Part shown: positions 4,465 to 13,308 of the stretch, in pieces | Layout of the letters: the number at the start of each line of letters is the position of its first letter | Position numbering within the stretch: the first letter of the stretch is position 1 | Translations under genes and position numbers: made by a program | The notes under the pieces: model-generated | The model's database searches: none | The model's input: the letters and a program-made list of their open reading frames with translations, nothing else | What the model was told of the DNA's origin: nothing | Source: an uncultured Candidatus Saccharibacteria bacterium | GTDB lineage: Bacteria > Patescibacteriota > Minisyncoccia > Phycocordibacterales > PALSA-1337 | Length of the DNA: 29,183 nt | Assembly: GCA_964633555.1 (NCBI GenBank) | Contig: CAZWGR010000001.1 | Location: forward strand, 1-29,183 | Reading direction: 5' to 3'

Positions 4465-5718
4465 ATGATAAATCGTCGCTATATTCTGCCGATAATATTT
4501 TTTACTATATTTTTGGATATGCTCGGTTTTGGAATACTCATTCCGATTTTGCCGCAGATCTTTGCTAATCCAGAATCTTCGCTCTATATACTCGGTAATT
4601 CAGTGTCGATTGAAACGGGGTATGTCTTGCTTGGTATACTTACCGCAGCTTATCCATTGGGCCAGTTTGTTGCCACACCAATTTTGGGGCAGTTGTCTGA
4701 CATGTATGGTCGGAAAAAGATTCTTGCAATAGCCTTGTTTGGAACTCTCATATCGTATGTAGTTTTTGGATTCGGTGTAGTGATTAAGAGTGTCTGGCTC
4801 CTCATGATATCGCGCTTCTTTGACGGAATTACCGGAGGAAATATTTCAGTAGCACAAGCCGTAATTGCTGACAGTACTTTGCCACAAGATAGAGCAAAAA
4901 ACTTCGGCTTGATCGGAGCAGCTTTTGGACTCGGCTTTATTCTCGGTCCATTTTTAGGCGGTGTGCTTGTCGATAGTTCTATCGTTTCGTGGTTCGGCCC
5001 AACAATTCCATTCTGGTTTGCTGCAATACTTTCATTTATTAATATTATTGTCGTATGGTTTGTATTACCAGAAACATATATTCCGCAGGAAAAGACAAAA
5101 TTAGACTGGAGCAAGTCTTTAGCGAATCTTGCGCGAGCAGCAACGTTCCCAGGCTTTAGGGGAATATTTGCAACTAATTTTATTTATCAGGCAAGTTTTG
5201 CTTTCTTTACGTCATTTTTCGGAGTCTTTCTAGTCGATCGATTCATGATGACAGAAGGGCAAATAGGGAAGCACTTAGCTTTCTTGGGTATTTGTATTGT
5301 TATTACCCAGCTTACAATTACACGATTTTTGGCATCACGAGTTTCTGATTATAAAATAATTCGCACATCGCTCATCTTGGCAGGACTCATAATGTTCACC
5401 CATTATTTTGTATATGGAATTGTAGAATTGCGAATCGTTGCGGCAATGTTTGCTGTAGCAAATGGCCTTGTACTTGCGAATGTTAATGGTTTAATTTCAC
5501 GAAAAGCAGATAAAACAATACAAGGAGAAATACTTGGTATTAATGCGAGTGTCCAAGCTTTGGCACATTCAATACCACCACTCATTTCTGGCTTTGTGGT
5601 TATTACCTTTACGCCAGAAACCCCGGTTTTAGTTGCCGGGGTTCTTATGGTTATTGCTGGCCTCGTTTTTGTTACCGCTCGATATTTTTCCACCACCTCT
5701 GAATCGGTGCGCGTTTAA
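4465..5718 (+). CDS. MFS transporter, TetA/DHA1-like
   Basis: About 12 TM helices; motif A GQLSDMYGRKK, SRFFDGITGGN, motif C GAAFGLGFILGPFLGG. Confidence 0.9.
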   Translation: MINRRYILPIIFFTIFLDMLGFGILIPILPQIFANPESSLYILGNSVSIETGYVLLGILTAAYPLGQFVATPILGQLSDMYGRKKILAIALFGTLISYVVFGFGVVIKSVWLLMISRFFDGITGGNISVAQAVIADSTLPQDRAKNFGLIGAAFGLGFILGPFLGGVLVDSSIVSWFGPTIPFWFAAILSFINIIVVWFVLPETYIPQEKTKLDWSKSLANLARAATFPGFRGIFATNFIYQASFAFFTSFFGVFLVDRFMMTEGQIGKHLAFLGICIVITQLTITRFLASRVSDYKIIRTSLILAGLIMFTHYFVYGIVELRIVAAMFAVANGLVLANVNGLISRKADKTIQGEILGINASVQALAHSIPPLISGFVVITFTPETPVLVAGVLMVIAGLVFVTARYFSTTSESVRV

Positions 5719-6355
5719 TAATATCTATTGCTTCATCAAGATTGTCGGTAATGGTGTAGAGCTTAAGATCTTCAGGGTTAATTGCTTTATCTTCTTCGAG
5801 CATATGCTCTTTAATAAAGGTAACGAGGGGTGTCCAGAAGTCTGAACCCACAAGAATAATTGGCACAGCAGGAATCTTTTTTGTTTGAATAAGGGTGAGG
5901 ACTTCAAAGAATTCATCAAAAGTTCCATAGCCACCAGGAAAAACTACATAAGCTTCTGCAGCAAACGTAAGGACTGTTTTTCGAGTAAAAAAGTAAGAGA
6001 AATCCATATTCTCAACTACCCAAGGATTTGTATGTTGTTCTTTCGGAAGCTTAATTGAAATACCGAGCGATACTCCACCAGCTTCGTGCGCACCACGATT
6101 TGCTGCTTCCATAATTCCGGGGCCACCACCAGTCACCACAGCATAACCACATTCTTTTGCAATTCGTCGGGCAAGTTCACGAGCCATGAGCGAATATTTG
6201 TGATCTTCAGCAAAGCGAGCTGAGCCCATAATACTCACACTCTTTGGATATCGTTTGATAAAATCAAAACCGTTTTTAAATTCCTGAAAAATTCGAGCGA
6301 GACTCTCTACTTGATTCTTTCGAATATCGTGCTCGTTGAAGTATTGTGCATCCAT
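5672..6355 (-). CDS. LOG family (TIGR00730-like) nucleotide 5'-monophosphate phosphoribohydrolase
   Basis: SIMGSAR, TGGGPGIMEAANRGA, and the LOG signature PGGYGTFDE; 3' end overlaps the MFS gene end by 47 nt. Confidence 0.92.
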   Translation of the reverse strand: MDAQYFNEHDIRKNQVESLARIFQEFKNGFDFIKRYPKSVSIMGSARFAEDHKYSLMARELARRIAKECGYAVVTGGGPGIMEAANRGAHEAGGVSLGISIKLPKEQHTNPWVVENMDFSYFFTRKTVLTFAAEAYVVFPGGYGTFDEFFEVLTLIQTKKIPAVPIILVGSDFWTPLVTFIKEHMLEEDKAINPEDLKLYTITDNLDEAIDIIKRAPIQRWWKNIER

Positions 6356-6378: not shown

Positions 6379-7635
6379 ATGAAGCCAGGTTTTGAACTTG
6401 TTAAGAAATTTCCACAGGCAGAAGGAAAAGGCGATGAATATCGTACTGGCTTGGCGCGTGTGGGAACAATTAAGACTCCACACGGCGATATTCAGACTCC
6501 AGCTTTTATTGCCGTTGGAACCAAAGCCACAGTTAAAGCTCTCACTATCGAAGATATTCATCTTACAGGTGCTCAAGCTGTACTTGCGAATACATATCAT
6601 CTGTATCTTGAGCCAGGGCACAAACTTATTGATCAAGCAGGAGGCTTTGGAAAGTTTATGAATTGGAATGGTCCAACCTTTACCGACTCAGGAGGTTTTC
6701 AAGTTTTTTCTTTGGGGCAAGCATATGGCAAAGGTGTTTCAAAGGTAGCAACTACAGATGCTACACAAATTTCGAATGCAATAGATACTGATGGTCGGGA
6801 AAGTAATGGTCAGGGTTCTCTGGTTGATATTGATGAAGACGGCGTAACATTTAAATCTCATATTGATGGATCTCGTCATCGTTTTACTCCAGAACTCTCT
6901 ATGGATATTCAGCACGCTCTTGGCGCAGATATTTTCTTTGCTTTTGATGAATGTACCTCGCCCATGGCTCCACATGAATATCAGCTACAAGCTGTAGAAA
7001 GAACTCATCGCTGGGCACAGAGATCACTCGATAGACATTTGGCCAATAACTCTAAAAACCAAATGCTCTTTGGAGTAGTGCAGGGTGGTCAATATGAAGA
7101 TCTACGCCGCATGTGTGCGCGCCACCTCGGTAGCATGCCTTTTGATGGCTTCGGTATCGGAGGCTCATTTACTAAAAAAGATATCGACACTGCTGTAGGT
7201 TGGGTTTGTTCAGAATTGCCCGAGAATAAACCACGACACCTTTTGGGAATTGGTGAACCTATTGATATCTTTGGTGCTGTCGAAAATGGTATCGATACTT
7301 TTGATTGTGTGGCGCCAACTCGTATTGCCCGAAATGGAACTCTATATACCAATCGAGGAAAGATTAATATTCGCAATGCAGAGTACTCGCAGCTCCTCGA
7401 ATCTTTTGATTCAACATCGGATAGTCCAATTGCTCAAAAATATACAGCAGCATACCTAGCGCACCTATTTAGATCACATGAAATGCTCGCTGCAACACTT
7501 GCATCGATACACAATTTGCATTTCATAATTTCACTCGTCGAAAAAGTACGATTGTCGCTTCTTGATGGTACGTATACAGAATTCAAAAAGAAATTCCTAG
7601 CAGATTTCTATTCTGAAAGTTCTACTGGTTTATAA
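6379..7635 (+). CDS. tgt: tRNA-guanine(34) transglycosylase, atypical (Zn-site cysteines absent)
   Basis: ANTYHL, TDSGGFQ, FDEC, VQGG, KPRHLLGIG, DTFDCVAPTR, ARNG, IHNL; catalytic Asp residues present. Confidence 0.96.
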   Translation: MKPGFELVKKFPQAEGKGDEYRTGLARVGTIKTPHGDIQTPAFIAVGTKATVKALTIEDIHLTGAQAVLANTYHLYLEPGHKLIDQAGGFGKFMNWNGPTFTDSGGFQVFSLGQAYGKGVSKVATTDATQISNAIDTDGRESNGQGSLVDIDEDGVTFKSHIDGSRHRFTPELSMDIQHALGADIFFAFDECTSPMAPHEYQLQAVERTHRWAQRSLDRHLANNSKNQMLFGVVQGGQYEDLRRMCARHLGSMPFDGFGIGGSFTKKDIDTAVGWVCSELPENKPRHLLGIGEPIDIFGAVENGIDTFDCVAPTRIARNGTLYTNRGKINIRNAEYSQLLESFDSTSDSPIAQKYTAAYLAHLFRSHEMLAATLASIHNLHFIISLVEKVRLSLLDGTYTEFKKKFLADFYSESSTGL

Positions 7636-8666
7636 GATTCCGGTTTGCGAGTAATCCAACTTTCAATTTCTTGAGCATTTAAAAGACCCTTTTGAGCACC
7701 AACTGATAGAACTACTGACATTGGGTTAATAGGAGCCCATATAAGAGCTTCTAGAGGTGTTTTTCCAAGTGCTAGAGCAGCCACAAAAGTCGAAGCAAAA
7801 GCATCGCCGCAGCCCGTTCTTTCATAAGGTTCTCCTTGGTCAGGGTATGGAGGCATAAAATACATTTTCTGAGCTGATTCTGGACTTGTAGTGTCATACA
7901 TATAAGCTCCCTTAGGGCCATCAGTAATACATACAATCTTAGGTCCGAGCTGTGCCAAGCCTTTGAGTAAAACAGAAATCTTTGCAGAATGAAGATTGAG
8001 AATTCTGCCAGCTTCTTCCACATTCACCACAAAGACATGTGTGCGTGCATATATCTTTTTGAGTTTGTCGGTACCAAGTCGCATCTGAAATGTTCCAGGT
8101 TGAAAAGCAACTTTAATTGTTGGATACATTTCGAGCCACTCAGCAATATCATGGTGGAACGATTCAGAAGATGCGCCAAGCGAACTTAAATACACCCATG
8201 AAGGAATTTTGTGCGAAGACTGAGTAATGAGTTCTTCGGGTAAAGAATAGGGATAGGTCTGGTGTTTAACGAGTATAGTTCTTTCTGCACCATACCAGAG
8301 TACATAGTGGTGATTCGTTGAGCGACCATGATGGCGAACTACATAGGGTGTACGTACTCGCTGTTTACGTAAAGCCTCAATACAATCGTCACCATTAGTA
8401 TCGTCGCCAATGTTGCCGATAAAAGCAGTGTGAAGCCCTAGTTTAGAAAAAGCTACTGCTGCATTGGCACTATTTCCTACGCCCGGAATATTATAGGCTT
8501 CTTCATATGGAATTTTGTCGCCAAACTTAACTGATAGGGTACAGTCTTCGGGATTAACGTTGCAATGCACCTCGGCTTCTTTGAGGCGGATAAAAGTGTC
8601 GACGGTAATATCACCAATCGTTACGATATCAAACTTTTTAGAAAATAGTGAAGATAGAAGAATCAT
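7608..8666 (-). CDS. PfkB family carbohydrate kinase
   Basis: GVGNSANAAVAFSKLG, VNVEEA, ITDGPKGA, RTGCGDAF anion-hole motif. Start moved to the ATG at 8666 because the longer ORF overlaps the divergent fba start. Confidence 0.88.
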   Translation of the reverse strand: MILLSSLFSKKFDIVTIGDITVDTFIRLKEAEVHCNVNPEDCTLSVKFGDKIPYEEAYNIPGVGNSANAAVAFSKLGLHTAFIGNIGDDTNGDDCIEALRKQRVRTPYVVRHHGRSTNHHYVLWYGAERTILVKHQTYPYSLPEELITQSSHKIPSWVYLSSLGASSESFHHDIAEWLEMYPTIKVAFQPGTFQMRLGTDKLKKIYARTHVFVVNVEEAGRILNLHSAKISVLLKGLAQLGPKIVCITDGPKGAYMYDTTSPESAQKMYFMPPYPDQGEPYERTGCGDAFASTFVAALALGKTPLEALIWAPINPMSVVLSVGAQKGLLNAQEIESWITRKPESYKPVELSE

Positions 8667-8718
8667 AAGTGTGGATGTTCGTATGACATAAGTATACAGC
8701 AAATGGTACACTAGTGTT
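8667..8718. promoter_or_regulatory. Putative divergent promoters pfkB/fba
   Basis: Plus strand TGG-TACACT (8707-8712) 6 nt before the fba ATG; minus strand TATACT (8691-8696). Confidence 0.5.
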
Positions 8719-9603
8719 ATGAACACCATACAAGAATATCTGAAATTAGCAGAAAAACAGGGTAATGCTATCGGTCATTTTAATATTTCAAACTCCGATG
8801 GCTTTTGGGCTGTTGTACATGCTTCGCAAGAGCTCGAAGCAGAGCTTGGGCACAAGGTTCCTGTCATTATTGGCGTATCAGAAGGCGAAAGAGATTGTAT
8901 TGGAGTAGAAGCTGTTGCGCTTATGGTGCGCAGTGCTCGCGAAAAATACAATATACCTCTCTTTTTAAATGCTGATCATACATATTCTTTTGAACGAGTT
9001 AAAGAGGTAGTAGATGCCGGTTACGATGCTGTCATTTTTGATGGTACAGAATTACCTTTTGCTTCAAACGTTGCAGAAACTCAAAAGTGCAAAGAATATA
9101 TTACAAAAGTACGACCAGCAATGCTCCTCGAAGCCGAGCTTGGTTTTATCGGTAAGTCCTCAAAGGTTCTTGAGGGTATACCAGACAATGTAAAACTTAC
9201 TGATGAATTTTTAACTGACCCTATTGAGGCACAAAAGTTTATTAAAGAAACTGGTGCAGATATGCTCGCTCCAGCTGTAGGAAACATTCACGGCATGCTT
9301 AAGGGTGGAGTTGATCCAGCTTTAAATCCGCAGCGTGTACAAGAGATTAGTGAAGCTACAAAAGTTCCTTTAGTACTCCATGGAGCTTCGGGTAATTCTG
9401 ATGCCGAAATCAAAGAGTGTATTAAGGCTGGCGTTCGAATCGTGCACGTAAATACCGAGCTCCGCGTTGCCTTTAAACAGGGACTTATTAAGTACCTTCA
9501 AGAAAACCCTGATGAAGTTGCTCCTTATAAATATATGAAAGCAGCTCGAGACGCAATGAAAGATGTGGTAAAGAAAAAATTATTAGTTTTCATGAATGCT
9601 TAA
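8719..9603 (+). CDS. fba: Class II fructose-bisphosphate aldolase
   Basis: AIGHFN, LNADH, VIFDGT, LEAELG, LAPAVGNIHG, PLVLHGASG, VHVNTE; metal-binding His residues present. Confidence 0.93.
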   Translation: MNTIQEYLKLAEKQGNAIGHFNISNSDGFWAVVHASQELEAELGHKVPVIIGVSEGERDCIGVEAVALMVRSAREKYNIPLFLNADHTYSFERVKEVVDAGYDAVIFDGTELPFASNVAETQKCKEYITKVRPAMLLEAELGFIGKSSKVLEGIPDNVKLTDEFLTDPIEAQKFIKETGADMLAPAVGNIHGMLKGGVDPALNPQRVQEISEATKVPLVLHGASGNSDAEIKECIKAGVRIVHVNTELRVAFKQGLIKYLQENPDEVAPYKYMKAARDAMKDVVKKKLLVFMNA

Positions 9604-13003: not shown

Positions 13004-13020
13004 GAATATTGCACGGTATA

Positions 13021-13049
13021 TTGCATTTATATTCAGTATCTGATATAGT
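13021..13049 (+). promoter_or_regulatory. Putative sigma70 leaderless promoter of rpmE
   Basis: TTGCAT-N17-(TGA)TATAGT-N7-ATG. Confidence 0.65.
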
Positions 13050-13056
13050 CTCTCGC

Positions 13057-13308
13057 ATGAAGCAAGATATTCATCCAAAGGAATACCGCCCAGTGATCTT
13101 CGTGGATAACTCAAACGGAGCTCAGTTTCTTATTCCTTCAACAATCAAAACATCAGAAAAGGGCTCATGGACAGACGGTAAAGAATACCCACTCTATCGA
13201 CTCGAAATTACAAGTGCATCACACCCATTCTATACAAACCAGGAAAAGGTGATGGATACTGCAGGACGTGTAGAAAAGTTCCGTTCTCGCCAGTCAAAGA
13301 AGAAATAA
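13057..13308 (+). CDS. rpmE: 50S ribosomal protein L31 type B (Zn-independent)
   Basis: MKQDIHPKEYRPVIF, EITSASHPFYT, AGRVEKF; no CxxC motifs. True start at ATG 13057. Confidence 0.95.
   Translation: MKQDIHPKEYRPVIFVDNSNGAQFLIPSTIKTSEKGSWTDGKEYPLYRLEITSASHPFYTNQEKVMDTAGRVEKFRSRQSKKK

What the first reader, a model, noticed from the sequence alone, without database searches (positions are those of the whole stretch)
7408..7512. TGT has lost all three zinc-ligand cysteines
Seen: where bacterial TGTs have D-x-x-C-x-C-x-x-C-x-x-Y, this protein has D-S-T-S-D-S-P-I-A-Q-K-Y (C to S, S, A at 7417, 7423, 7432). The fourth ligand His (IHNL, 7510) and the catalytic Asp/Gln residues remain. Established: the Cys3His Zn site (Z. 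mobilis C318/C320/C323/H349) is structural and needed for the tRNA-binding/dimer subdomain. Inference: a Zn-independent TGT variant. The Zn-free type B L31 in the same window fits Zn sparing, though GatB, ThrRS and FBA keep their metal ligands. The intact ORF and active site argue against decay.
Basis: partly seen in the sequence, partly recalled or inferred. Interest (0 to 1): 0.62.

Follow-up and report, generated by a model that had tools for sequence, protein, structure and literature searches.

The report
Zinc-free tRNA-guanine transglycosylase variant
The tRNA-modifying enzyme Tgt of this tiny-genome (CPR/Paceibacteria) bacterium has really lost three of the four ligands of a structural zinc site that the literature calls absolutely conserved, yet it is intact and strongly conserved, so it is most likely a working zinc-free version of an ordinary enzyme.

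Summary
Observation confirmed. The 418-aa ORF at 6379-7635 (+) is a bacterial Tgt. Where Z. mobilis Tgt has C318/C320/C323 it has S347/S349/A352. The fourth ligand (H378), all catalytic and pocket residues and the dimer hot-spot residues are kept.

It is neither an error nor decay. Five independent assemblies at 80-95% identity keep S-S-A, and dN/dS against the sister species is 0.03 (0.04 in the former zinc subdomain).

The loss is at genus level. In the window's own GTDB family, 48 of 53 Tgt keep CxCxxC, and only the window's genus and one other genus do not.

Loss recurs elsewhere and takes different chemical forms:
- 50 of the 80 species with the most similar Tgt.
- 7 of 69 in an even class-level sample, from 5 further families.
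- 23 of 139 cluster representatives.
- Cultured Devosia.

Two zinc-less relatives have QueA and a single Tgt, which argues for activity.

The "zinc sparing" reading is not supported. L31 type and Tgt zinc state are uncoupled across 43 relatives. The genome also keeps Cys4 motifs in RpoC, UvrA, LeuRS, PriA, RecR, MsrB and S14.

This scan had already found zinc-less Tgt on other DNA several times. No paper found describes it. Verdict: a new variant of a known enzyme, of moderate interest.

The parts
6379..7635 (+). tgt: bacterial-type tRNA-guanine(34) transglycosylase, 418 aa, the only Tgt gene found in the genome
   Evidence: PF01702 E 8.5e-128 and TIGR00430 432.7 bits, above the cut-off. One TGT match in the 652-kb, 87%-complete genome. 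AF2 pLDDT 90.7, with Foldseek TM 0.95 and rmsd 1.5-1.6 to Z. mobilis Tgt.
7408..7443 (+). Remnant of the zinc knuckle, D344 to Y355. It keeps the canonical spacing but has S347 (7417), S349 (7423) and A352 (7432) in place of the three Cys.
   Evidence: Alignment to Zm C318/C320/C323. S-S-A is conserved in all six members of the clade. P350 replaces a Tyr that 80 of 88 Cys-keeping relatives have.
7510..7512 (+). H378, the retained fourth zinc ligand (Zm H349), in the I-H-N-L motif
   Evidence: His is kept in every zinc-less Paceibacteria form listed. It is lost in Devosia and some other distant zinc-less forms.
7441..7482 (+). Helix carrying the dimer-interface hot spot: Y355 (Zm W326), Y359 (Y330), H362 (H333) and E368 (E339)
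   Evidence: Mapping. The roles of these residues come from bioRxiv 10.1101/2020.09.01.277731. Y359 is invariant; H362 and E368 are at least 90% conserved. The partner residues K53 (Zm K52) and F93 (Zm F92) are also present.
6685..6687 (+). D103, equivalent to Zm D102 (catalytic and substrate-binding Asp in T-D-S-G-G-F-Q)
   Evidence: invariant.
6946..6954 (+). D190-E-C192, equivalent to Zm D156 and C158 (base pocket)
   Evidence: D190 is invariant and C192 is at least 90% conserved.
7303..7305 (+). D309, equivalent to Zm D280, the nucleophile in F-D-C-V
   Evidence: Residue-by-residue count on the alignment; invariant.
7159..7182 (+). Pocket loop G261-G-S-F-T-K-K-D268 in place of the canonical G-G-L-A-V-G-E (Zm 229-235). 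This is a clade-wide feature and is independent of the zinc state.
   Evidence: all 80 related species, whether Cys-keeping or zinc-less, have G-I-G-G-[SC]-F-x-K-x-[DG] (G-I-G-G-S-F-x-K-x-D in 79, with one Cys/Gly exception, L082).
6718..6816 (+). Insertion of about 33 aa (residues 114-146) relative to Z. mobilis Tgt. It is variable and probably disordered.
   Evidence: Gap between the two phmmer stretches. pLDDT is 41-64 and dN/dS is 0.14 against 0.03 for the whole gene.
5672..6355 (-). Context: LOG-family (PF03641) gene transcribed divergently, 23 bp from the tgt start
   Evidence: The same divergent neighbour is present in 23 of 80 related loci: L004, L037, L048 and 20 Cys-keeping forms.
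13009..13308 (+). The real start is probably the Met at 13057.
   Evidence: no Cys. The same type occurs in 11 relatives that keep the Tgt zinc site.

Best explanation
This is the organism's single housekeeping tRNA-guanine(34) transglycosylase. It most likely still works as a homodimer that swaps G34 of GUN-anticodon tRNAs for a salvaged 7-deazaguanine base. The subdomain between strand 8 and helix 8 now folds without zinc. In the window's genus the three thiolate ligands were replaced in place (Ser, Ser, Ala) with the loop length unchanged. A Pro follows the second position and the former His ligand is kept. The knuckle is presumably held by ordinary hydrogen bonds and packing instead of a metal. 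Shown: the substitutions, their conservation, purifying selection, an intact active site and intact dimer residues, and the recurrence of the loss. Inferred: zinc-free folding, catalytic activity and the nature of the base. The genome has a YhhQ/QPTR transporter but no QueA, QueG, QueH, QueF or real QueC, so the base is probably imported queuine or preQ1. The loss is a genus-level event inside a family that otherwise keeps the site. It is most simply a compensated loss specific to this protein, not part of a proteome-wide zinc economy.
For: Identity and fold:
-. The former zinc subdomain is modelled at pLDDT 96-98 with a mixed alignment and at 94-97 with an alignment of zinc-less sequences only.

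Selection:
- dN/dS is 0.028 for the whole gene and 0.039 for residues 330-418 against the sister species, at dS about 1.

Functional residues:
- D103, D190, Q235, G261, G262 and D309 are invariant.
- The dimer residues K53, F93, Y355, Y359, H362 and E368 are kept.

Single copy and substrates:
- One Tgt gene in the genome.
- tRNA-Asp(GUC) and tRNA-Tyr(GUA) genes are present.

Pathway context:
- YhhQ is present (E 4.9e-40).
- QueA, QueH, QueG and QueF were not found, and only a borderline partial QueC-family hit exists.
- Tgt plus QPTR alone is the published salvage pattern (PMC10723273).

Activity of zinc-less forms in general:
- Two relatives with zinc-less Tgt (G051, G066) have QueA and only one Tgt gene.

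Lineage pattern:
- 48 of 53 Tgt in the same GTDB family keep CxCxxC. Only the window's genus (S-S-A) and genus g3 (knuckle deleted) do not.
Against: - No biochemical data exist for any zinc-less Tgt.
- In E. coli Tgt, mutating these ligands abolishes zinc binding and activity (Chong et al. 1995). That paper is known to me only through citation and from memory.
- AlphaFold confidence says nothing about metal dependence.
- I could not read the model coordinates, so the contacts that replace the metal are not shown.
- The pocket loop lacks the canonical Glu235 position, so substrate and even activity could differ. That feature is shared with the Cys-keeping relatives.
- The genome is 87% complete, so the absence of QueA and the other genes is not proven.
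Confidence: 0.8

Rival explanations
1. The site still binds a metal through a different ligand set, for example H378 with D344, D348, S347 or S349, so the enzyme is not metal-free.
For: H378 is retained in all zinc-less Paceibacteria forms listed. D344 is conserved. A related sub-lineage (L034, L038, L045, L062, L079) has C-x4-C-x2-H plus the His, which could be a rebuilt Cys2His2 site.
Against: D348 varies within the clade (D, N, S, Q). D344 is also present in Cys-keeping forms, so it is not a new ligand. Ser is a very poor zinc ligand, and A352 cannot bind a metal at all. The only clade-specific His (H367) lies in the loop before the long helix, about nine residues from H378. Other lineages replace the ligands with Trp, Leu, Ile or Asn, or delete the knuckle altogether. 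The fold therefore clearly tolerates having no site.
Confidence: 0.07
2. The protein is a catalytically dead or repurposed Tgt homologue, for example a tRNA-binding or regulatory protein like the eukaryotic accessory subunit QTRT2.
For: The genome lacks the downstream enzymes QueA and QueG/H. The pocket loop is non-canonical. Some lineages are reported to keep tgt alone (PMC10723273).
Against: Every catalytic residue is invariant: D103, D190, Q235 and D309. QTRT2-type proteins do the opposite, keeping zinc and losing the aspartates (PMC3074131). dN/dS is 0.03. A QPTR transporter is present. Zinc-less relatives co-occur with QueA, which needs Tgt product.
Confidence: 0.08
3. The loss was driven by zinc economy. 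The first reader's version is that the organism spares zinc and that the Cys-less L31 in the same window is part of the same adaptation.
For: The window's L31 has no Cys. Zinc-starved bacteria are known to swap zinc proteins in the queuosine pathway, such as QueD2 and FolE2 (PMC9894224 and PMC11672702).
Against: Across relatives the two traits do not travel together: noZn/C+ 21, noZn/C- 4, Zn/C- 11, Zn/C+ 7, one of the Zn/C+ calls being a mis-parsed ORF (G011). The same genome keeps Cys4 motifs in RpoC, UvrA, LeuRS, PriA, RecR, MsrB, zinc-type S14 and GatB. One Tgt zinc per dimer subunit is a trivial saving. There is no second, zinc-bearing paralogue to switch with.
Confidence: 0.1
4. Sequencing or assembly artefact, or a decaying pseudogene.
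For: The source is a metagenome-assembled genome in 65 contigs.
Against: The frame is open and full length. The same S-S-A occurs in five independent assemblies with many synonymous differences (nt identity 85%, dS about 1, dN/dS 0.03).
Confidence: 0.01

Closest known systems
Canonical bacterial Tgt (Z. mobilis and E. coli tRNA-guanine(34) transglycosylase, EC 2.4.2.29; TIGR00430, PF01702)
   Same: About 40% identity. Same TIM-barrel fold plus inserted subdomain (TM 0.95, rmsd about 1.6). Same catalytic Asp, Asp, Gln, Gly and Asp residues. Same aromatic dimer hot spot and the same Lys52-Glu339 pair.
   Different: Three of the four Cys3His zinc ligands are gone. The pocket loop is G-G-S-F-T-K-K-D instead of G-G-L-A-V-G-E. 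There is an insertion of about 33 aa after the D-S-G-G-F-Q motif and a short N-terminal insertion.
Chlamydia trachomatis and Bartonella henselae bTGT + QPTR (YhhQ) salvage systems (PMC10723273)
   Same: The genome encodes Tgt and a YhhQ/QPTR transporter but no QueA, QueG or QueH and no preQ1 synthesis genes. It therefore must rely on an imported base.
   Different: Those enzymes are not reported to lack the zinc site. The substrate of the window's enzyme is unknown. YhhQ was found in only 5 of 50 related genomes.
Zinc-less Tgt of neighbouring Paceibacteria families and of Devosia
   Same: Same enzyme and same lost site, with His usually retained. All are single-copy, full-length genes.
   Different: The replacements differ. 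Most have a one-residue deletion with Trp, Asn or Ser at the second position and His or Ser at the third. Some delete the whole knuckle. The window's genus is so far unique in keeping the exact C-x-C-x-x-C spacing as S-x-S-x-x-A.
Phage DpdA (TGT-superfamily DNA transglycosylase) with two of four zinc ligands not conserved (PMC5699537)
   Same: A precedent within the TGT superfamily for degeneration of the zinc site.
   Different: That is a DNA-modifying paralogue with an archaeal-type pocket. The window's protein scores as the bacterial tRNA enzyme.
C+/C- pairs of zinc-ribbon ribosomal proteins (L31, S14 and others)
   Same: A structural Cys-zinc site is replaced by ordinary residues while function is kept.
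   Different: Those are usually paralogue pairs switched by zinc availability. Here there is a single gene and no coupling to L31 type.

Membership tests
Bacterial Tgt (TIGR00430 / PF01702, EC 2.4.2.29) | Profile match above the curated equivalog cut-off over the full length | tested here: met
   TIGR00430 432.7 bits against a cut-off of 306.75, positions 8-362 of 368. PF01702 426.8 bits.
Bacterial Tgt (TIGR00430 / PF01702, EC 2.4.2.29) | Catalytic and base-pocket residues Asp102, Asp156, Gln203, Gly230 and nucleophile Asp280 (Zm numbering) | tested here: met
   D103, D190, Q235, G262 and D309 by the alignment. All are invariant.
Bacterial Tgt (TIGR00430 / PF01702, EC 2.4.2.29) | Structural Cys3His zinc site (Zm C318, C320, C323, H349), described as absolutely conserved (PMC3074131) | tested here: not met
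   S347, S349 and A352; only H378 is kept. I treat this as a departure from a supposedly universal feature, not as grounds for exclusion. The feature fails in many proteins that otherwise pass the equivalog model.
Bacterial Tgt (TIGR00430 / PF01702, EC 2.4.2.29) | Homodimer interface hot spot (Lys52, Phe92, Trp/Phe/Tyr326, Tyr330, His333, Glu339) | tested here: met
   K53, F93, Y355, Y359, H362 and E368. Dimerisation itself was not tested.
Bacterial Tgt (TIGR00430 / PF01702, EC 2.4.2.29) | preQ1-type pocket loop G-G-L-A-V-G-E with Val233 and Glu235 | tested here: not met
   The loop is G-G-S-F-T-K-K-D. This holds clade-wide, including the Cys-keeping relatives.
Bacterial Tgt (TIGR00430 / PF01702, EC 2.4.2.29) | Guanine, preQ1 or queuine exchange at G34 of tRNA Asp, Asn, His and Tyr | not testable with these tools
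   Circumstantial evidence only: tRNA-Asp(GUC) and tRNA-Tyr(GUA) genes are present, and QueA co-occurs with single zinc-less Tgt in G051 and G066.
Direct-salvage Tgt + QPTR system (Chlamydia type) | Tgt and YhhQ/QPTR present; QueA, QueG/H and the preQ1 synthesis genes absent | tested here: met
   The caveat is that the genome is 87% complete.
Direct-salvage Tgt + QPTR system (Chlamydia type) | Demonstrated queuine specificity of enzyme and transporter | not testable with these tools
   No assay was possible. Bartonella shows that gene content alone does not predict the base.

The most novel reading that the evidence does not exclude
Loss of the Tgt zinc knuckle may not be neutral drift. It may be a repeatedly selected change, for example to escape oxidation or thiol-reactive inactivation of the Cys3His site, or to alter dimer dynamics. 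Together with the rebuilt pocket loop, the QPTR transporter and the conserved divergent LOG-family neighbour, it would then mark a distinct CPR route for salvaging queuosine-family bases. In that route a zinc-free Tgt inserts a base other than preQ1.
Probability: 0.12. Interest if true: 0.65.

Novelty: new variant of a known kind. Interest (0 to 1): 0.42.

Why it matters
[quoted passage not shown] Its Cys3His zinc site is described as absolutely conserved. At least one phylogenetic study discarded six sequences that were missing, or did not align with, the conserved aspartates and zinc ligands or had inconsistent lengths (PMC3074131).

Natural zinc-free enzymes under purifying selection show that the metal is dispensable for the fold. 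They also offer several independent "solutions": in-place Ser/Ser/Ala, a Trp plug with a one-residue deletion, and deletion of the knuckle. These could be compared structurally.

Cultured Devosia carries such an enzyme, so the question can be tested at the bench without cultivating a CPR organism.

For annotation, the result means that zinc-ligand checks should not be used to reject Tgt orthologues.

For this particular window the finding is one more instance of a pattern this scan has already met several times.

Tried and rejected
- **Zinc-sparing link.** I tested L31 type in 51 genomes (parsed in 43 relatives) and Cys4 motifs in the window's own genome. No coupling was found, so the link is rejected.
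- **Independence from the large zinc-less clade, by gene tree.** The result is inconclusive.
  - FastTree needs 3 changes of state.
  - IQ-TREE LG+G4 needs 4.
  - The PMSF quick tree needs 5, and its well-supported branches force at least 2.
  - An AU test cannot reject joining the S-S-A clade to the 46-species zinc-less clade (p 0.795; the constrained tree was in fact better).
  - The careful IQ-TREE search did not finish.
  - Independence therefore rests on GTDB family membership, LOG synteny and the different indel and chemistry.
- **Compensating substitutions.** Only Y350P stands out near the site. R238 is present in 81 of 88 Cys-keeping forms and 2 of 106 other zinc-less forms, so it co-varies with zinc state. 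That may be phylogenetic inertia, and one S-S-A member keeps Arg.
- **Devosia gene context.** I could not check whether Devosia has QueA, QueG and the preQ1 genes.
- **Model coordinates.** They are not readable, so no distances around S347, S349, A352 and H378 were measured.
- **PDB entries 10fa, 10fb and 10fc.** These are recent Tgt entries. I could not see whether they have the Cys ligands.
- **Literature.** Five full-text searches found no description of a zinc-less bacterial Tgt. This covers the held library only.
Full report
**1. What is in the window**

The finding lies in a 418-aa ORF at 6379-7635 on the + strand. It matches Pfam PF01702 (TGT) at E 8.5e-128. It scores 432.7 bits on NCBIfam TIGR00430, the equivalog model for bacterial tRNA-guanosine(34) transglycosylase, against a cut-off of 306.75. 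It is the only TGT-family gene found in the 652-kb, 65-contig, 87%-complete genome.

The surrounding 29 kb holds ordinary housekeeping genes of a small CPR genome. They include obg, gatB, fba, the ribosomal protein genes for L25, L31 and S2, tsf, prfA, pheST, gyrB, thrS and dnaE. Relatives are labelled Paceibacteria/Parcubacteria, for example Taylor-, Nomura- and Campbellbacteria.

**2.

In the phmmer alignment to Z. mobilis Tgt (1ozm, 1enu and others), the Zm stretch D-S-E-C318-H-C320-A-V-C323-Q-K-W lies over D344-S-T-S347-D-S349-P-I-A352-Q-K-Y355, without a gap. Zm H349 lies over H378.

Counting along the same alignment gives these equivalences:

| Z. mobilis | Window protein |
|---|---|
| D102 | D103 |
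| D156 | D190 |
| C158 | C192 |
| Q203 | Q235 |
| G229/G230 | G261/G262 |
| D280 (nucleophile, in M-F-D-C-V) | D309 |

All of these except C192, which is conserved in at least 90% of sequences, are invariant in a 120-sequence alignment of Cys-keeping and zinc-less homologues. The same holds in an 82-sequence alignment of zinc-less homologues only.

The residues that the Klebe group identified as the homodimer hot spot are also present. Those residues are Lys52, Phe92, Trp326 (Phe or Tyr in most bacteria), strictly conserved Tyr330, His333 and Glu339. Here they are K53, F93, Y355, Y359, H362 and E368.

**3. Not an error, not decay**

The closest species-level relative is L004, in the same GTDB genus, at 95% amino-acid but only 85% nucleotide identity. 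It has the same S-x-S-x-x-A...H. So do three further metagenome proteins at 80-94% identity.

Nei-Gojobori dN/dS between the window and L004, at dS about 1:

| Region | dN/dS |
|---|---|
| Whole gene | 0.028 |
| Residues 330-418 (former zinc subdomain and C-terminal helices) | 0.039 |
| 33-aa insertion | 0.14 |

AlphaFold2 gives a confident Tgt fold: pLDDT 90.7 and pTM 0.91. Foldseek finds TM 0.95 and rmsd about 1.6 Å to Z. mobilis Tgt. The former zinc subdomain is at pLDDT 96-98.

A second model used an alignment made only of zinc-less sequences. It keeps the same secondary structure at pLDDT 94-97. These models show consistency with the fold. They do not show metal independence.

**4. How lineage-specific is it?**

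*The window's own GTDB family.* I sampled 61 genomes in 14 genera. Of these, 54 have a Tgt and I read 53.
- 48 keep C-x-C-x-x-C...H.
- The exceptions are the window's genus (two species, S-S-A) and one other genus (three species), where the knuckle is deleted outright.
- So the ancestral state of the family is clearly the zinc site, and the loss is a genus-level event.

*Other samples.* Loss is common in all of them:

| Sample | Zinc-less |
|---|---|
| 80 GTDB species with the most similar Tgt | 50 of 80 |
| Even class-level sample (110 genomes, 68 families, 75 with Tgt, 69 readable) | 7 of 69, from five further families |
| 50%-identity cluster representatives nearest the query that cover the region | 23 of 139 keep at most two ligands |

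- Among the 80 nearest species, most zinc-less forms belong to one large clade. That clade has a one-residue deletion and Trp, Asn or Ser at the second ligand position.
- In the class-level sample, two of the five further families are in the window's order.
- One cluster of 358 members is the Tgt of cultured Devosia (for example WP_212658164). It has S, N, C and I at the four ligand positions.

*Number of independent losses.* Gene trees need 3 to 5 changes of state, and well-supported branches force at least 2. The Tgt tree alone cannot say whether the window's genus lost the site independently of the large clade (AU p 0.795).

Three observations favour an independent loss:
- Its GTDB family membership.
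- The retained canonical spacing of the knuckle.
- The divergent LOG-family neighbour, which it shares with 20 Cys-keeping family members but with none of the large clade.

**5. Are zinc-less Tgt active?**

The evidence is indirect.
- QueA uses the preQ1-tRNA that Tgt makes. It is present in 8 of the 80 related genomes.
- Six of those eight have a Cys-keeping Tgt. Two (G051 and G066) have a zinc-less Tgt as their only Tgt gene.
- That is hard to explain unless zinc-less Tgt works.

In the window's genome I found no QueA, QueH, QueG or QueF, and only a borderline 54-residue QueC-family hit inside a 650-aa ORF. There is a clear YhhQ/QPTR transporter (E 4.9e-40). tRNA-Asp(GUC) and tRNA-Tyr(GUA) genes are present.

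Tgt plus QPTR without the downstream enzymes is the published salvage pattern. Chlamydia salvages queuine this way, and Bartonella salvages preQ1 and weakly queuine (PMC10723273).

The pocket loop here is G-G-S-F-T-K-K-D instead of G-G-L-A-V-G-E. All 80 relatives share that feature whatever their zinc state. It therefore bears on substrate choice, not on the zinc question.

**6. The zinc-sparing inference fails**

*L31 type against Tgt zinc state* (51 genomes searched, L31 parsed in 43 relatives):

| Tgt | L31 | Genomes |
|---|---|---|
| Zinc-less | Four-Cys type | 21 |
| Zinc-less | Cys-less type | 4 |
| Cys3His | Cys-less type | 11 |
| Cys3His | Four-Cys type | 7 (one of them, G011, is a mis-parsed ORF) |

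The window's genome is not in this table; it pairs a zinc-less Tgt with a Cys-less L31. The Cys-less L31 in the window is a lineage trait shared with many genomes that keep the Tgt zinc site.

*Cys4 motifs in the window's genome.* It still has two-pair Cys motifs in RpoC, UvrA, LeuRS, PriA, RecR, MsrB, the short zinc-type S14, a LysW-like zinc ribbon and GatB.

The loss is therefore specific to this protein.

**7. Mechanism proposed**

Shown:
- The ligands are gone.
- The loop length is unchanged.
- P350 replaces a Tyr that 80 of 88 Cys-keeping relatives have.
- The His is kept.
- The helix that carries both the dimer hot spot and the former fourth ligand is conserved.

Inferred: the knuckle between strand 8 and helix 8 is now fixed by hydrogen bonds (Ser, Ser, His) and by a stiffer Pro-containing turn instead of by zinc. 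The homodimer and the catalytic cycle are unchanged.

I put 0.8 on a functional zinc-free Tgt, about 0.07 on an alternative metal site, about 0.08 on an inactive or repurposed protein, and about 0.01 on artefact. As for the cause, adaptive zinc economy gets about 0.1. Compensated, lineage-specific loss is the default.

**8. Comparison with what is known, and novelty**

The literature I could search treats the site as universal. [quoted passage not shown] Reviews describe the zinc subdomain as the dimerisation element.

The nearest precedent is phage DpdA, where two of the four ligands are not conserved.

Five full-text searches found no report of a zinc-less bacterial Tgt.

This scan has met the same thing on other genomes several times, and earlier follow-ups reached the same reading. 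I re-tested the central claims here rather than relying on them.

The thing is a new structural variant of a well-known enzyme, not a new kind of system. The window's genus adds one particular form: in-place Ser/Ser/Ala.

Noticed in passing
L034, L038, L045, L062, L079 (Tgt C-terminal region); also P0042, P0063, P0115, P0122: A sub-lineage of the large zinc-less clade has C-x4-C-[YP]-A-H followed by the retained His. This could be a rebuilt Cys2His2 zinc site, or an intermediate between Cys3His and the S-x4-W-Y-T-H forms.
   Followed up: no
window 5672-6355 (-) and 6379 (+): The LOG-family (PF03641) gene is divergent from tgt, with 23 bp between the start codons. The same arrangement is present in 23 of 80 related loci, mostly the Cys-keeping members of the window's family.
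   Followed up: partly
window 7159-7182: The pocket loop G-G-S-F-T-K-K-D replaces the canonical G-G-L-A-V-G-E in all 80 related species, so Val233 and Glu235 have no obvious equivalents. Most of these genomes lack QueA (72 of 80), and 45 of the 50 searched lack YhhQ. What base they insert, and how they import it, is open.
   Followed up: partly
window 6718-6816: An insertion of about 33 aa after D-S-G-G-F-Q-V-F-S-L. It is variable in length and sequence across the clade, has low pLDDT (41-64), and evolves faster than the rest of the gene (dN/dS 0.14).
   Followed up: partly
Position 238 of the Tgt (window 7090-7092): Arg is present in 81 of 88 Cys-keeping relatives but in only 2 of 106 zinc-less forms of the large clade (which have Ala or Ser). 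It is Gln in 5 of 6 members of the window's clade. This could be co-variation with the zinc site or plain phylogenetic inertia.
   Followed up: no
P0189 (413 aa, cluster representative): A distant Tgt has H-H-H-E-H-T-S-H where the Cys knuckle should be. This may be a His-based metal site.
   Followed up: no
P0185/P0287 cluster (358 members): Tgt of the cultured genus Devosia (Alphaproteobacteria) has S, N, C and I at the four zinc-ligand positions. It is a tractable organism for testing zinc-free Tgt.
   Followed up: partly
window 7608-7635: The 3' end of tgt overlaps, by 28 nt, the 3' end of the convergent PfkB-family kinase ORF (7608-8729, - strand).
   Followed up: no
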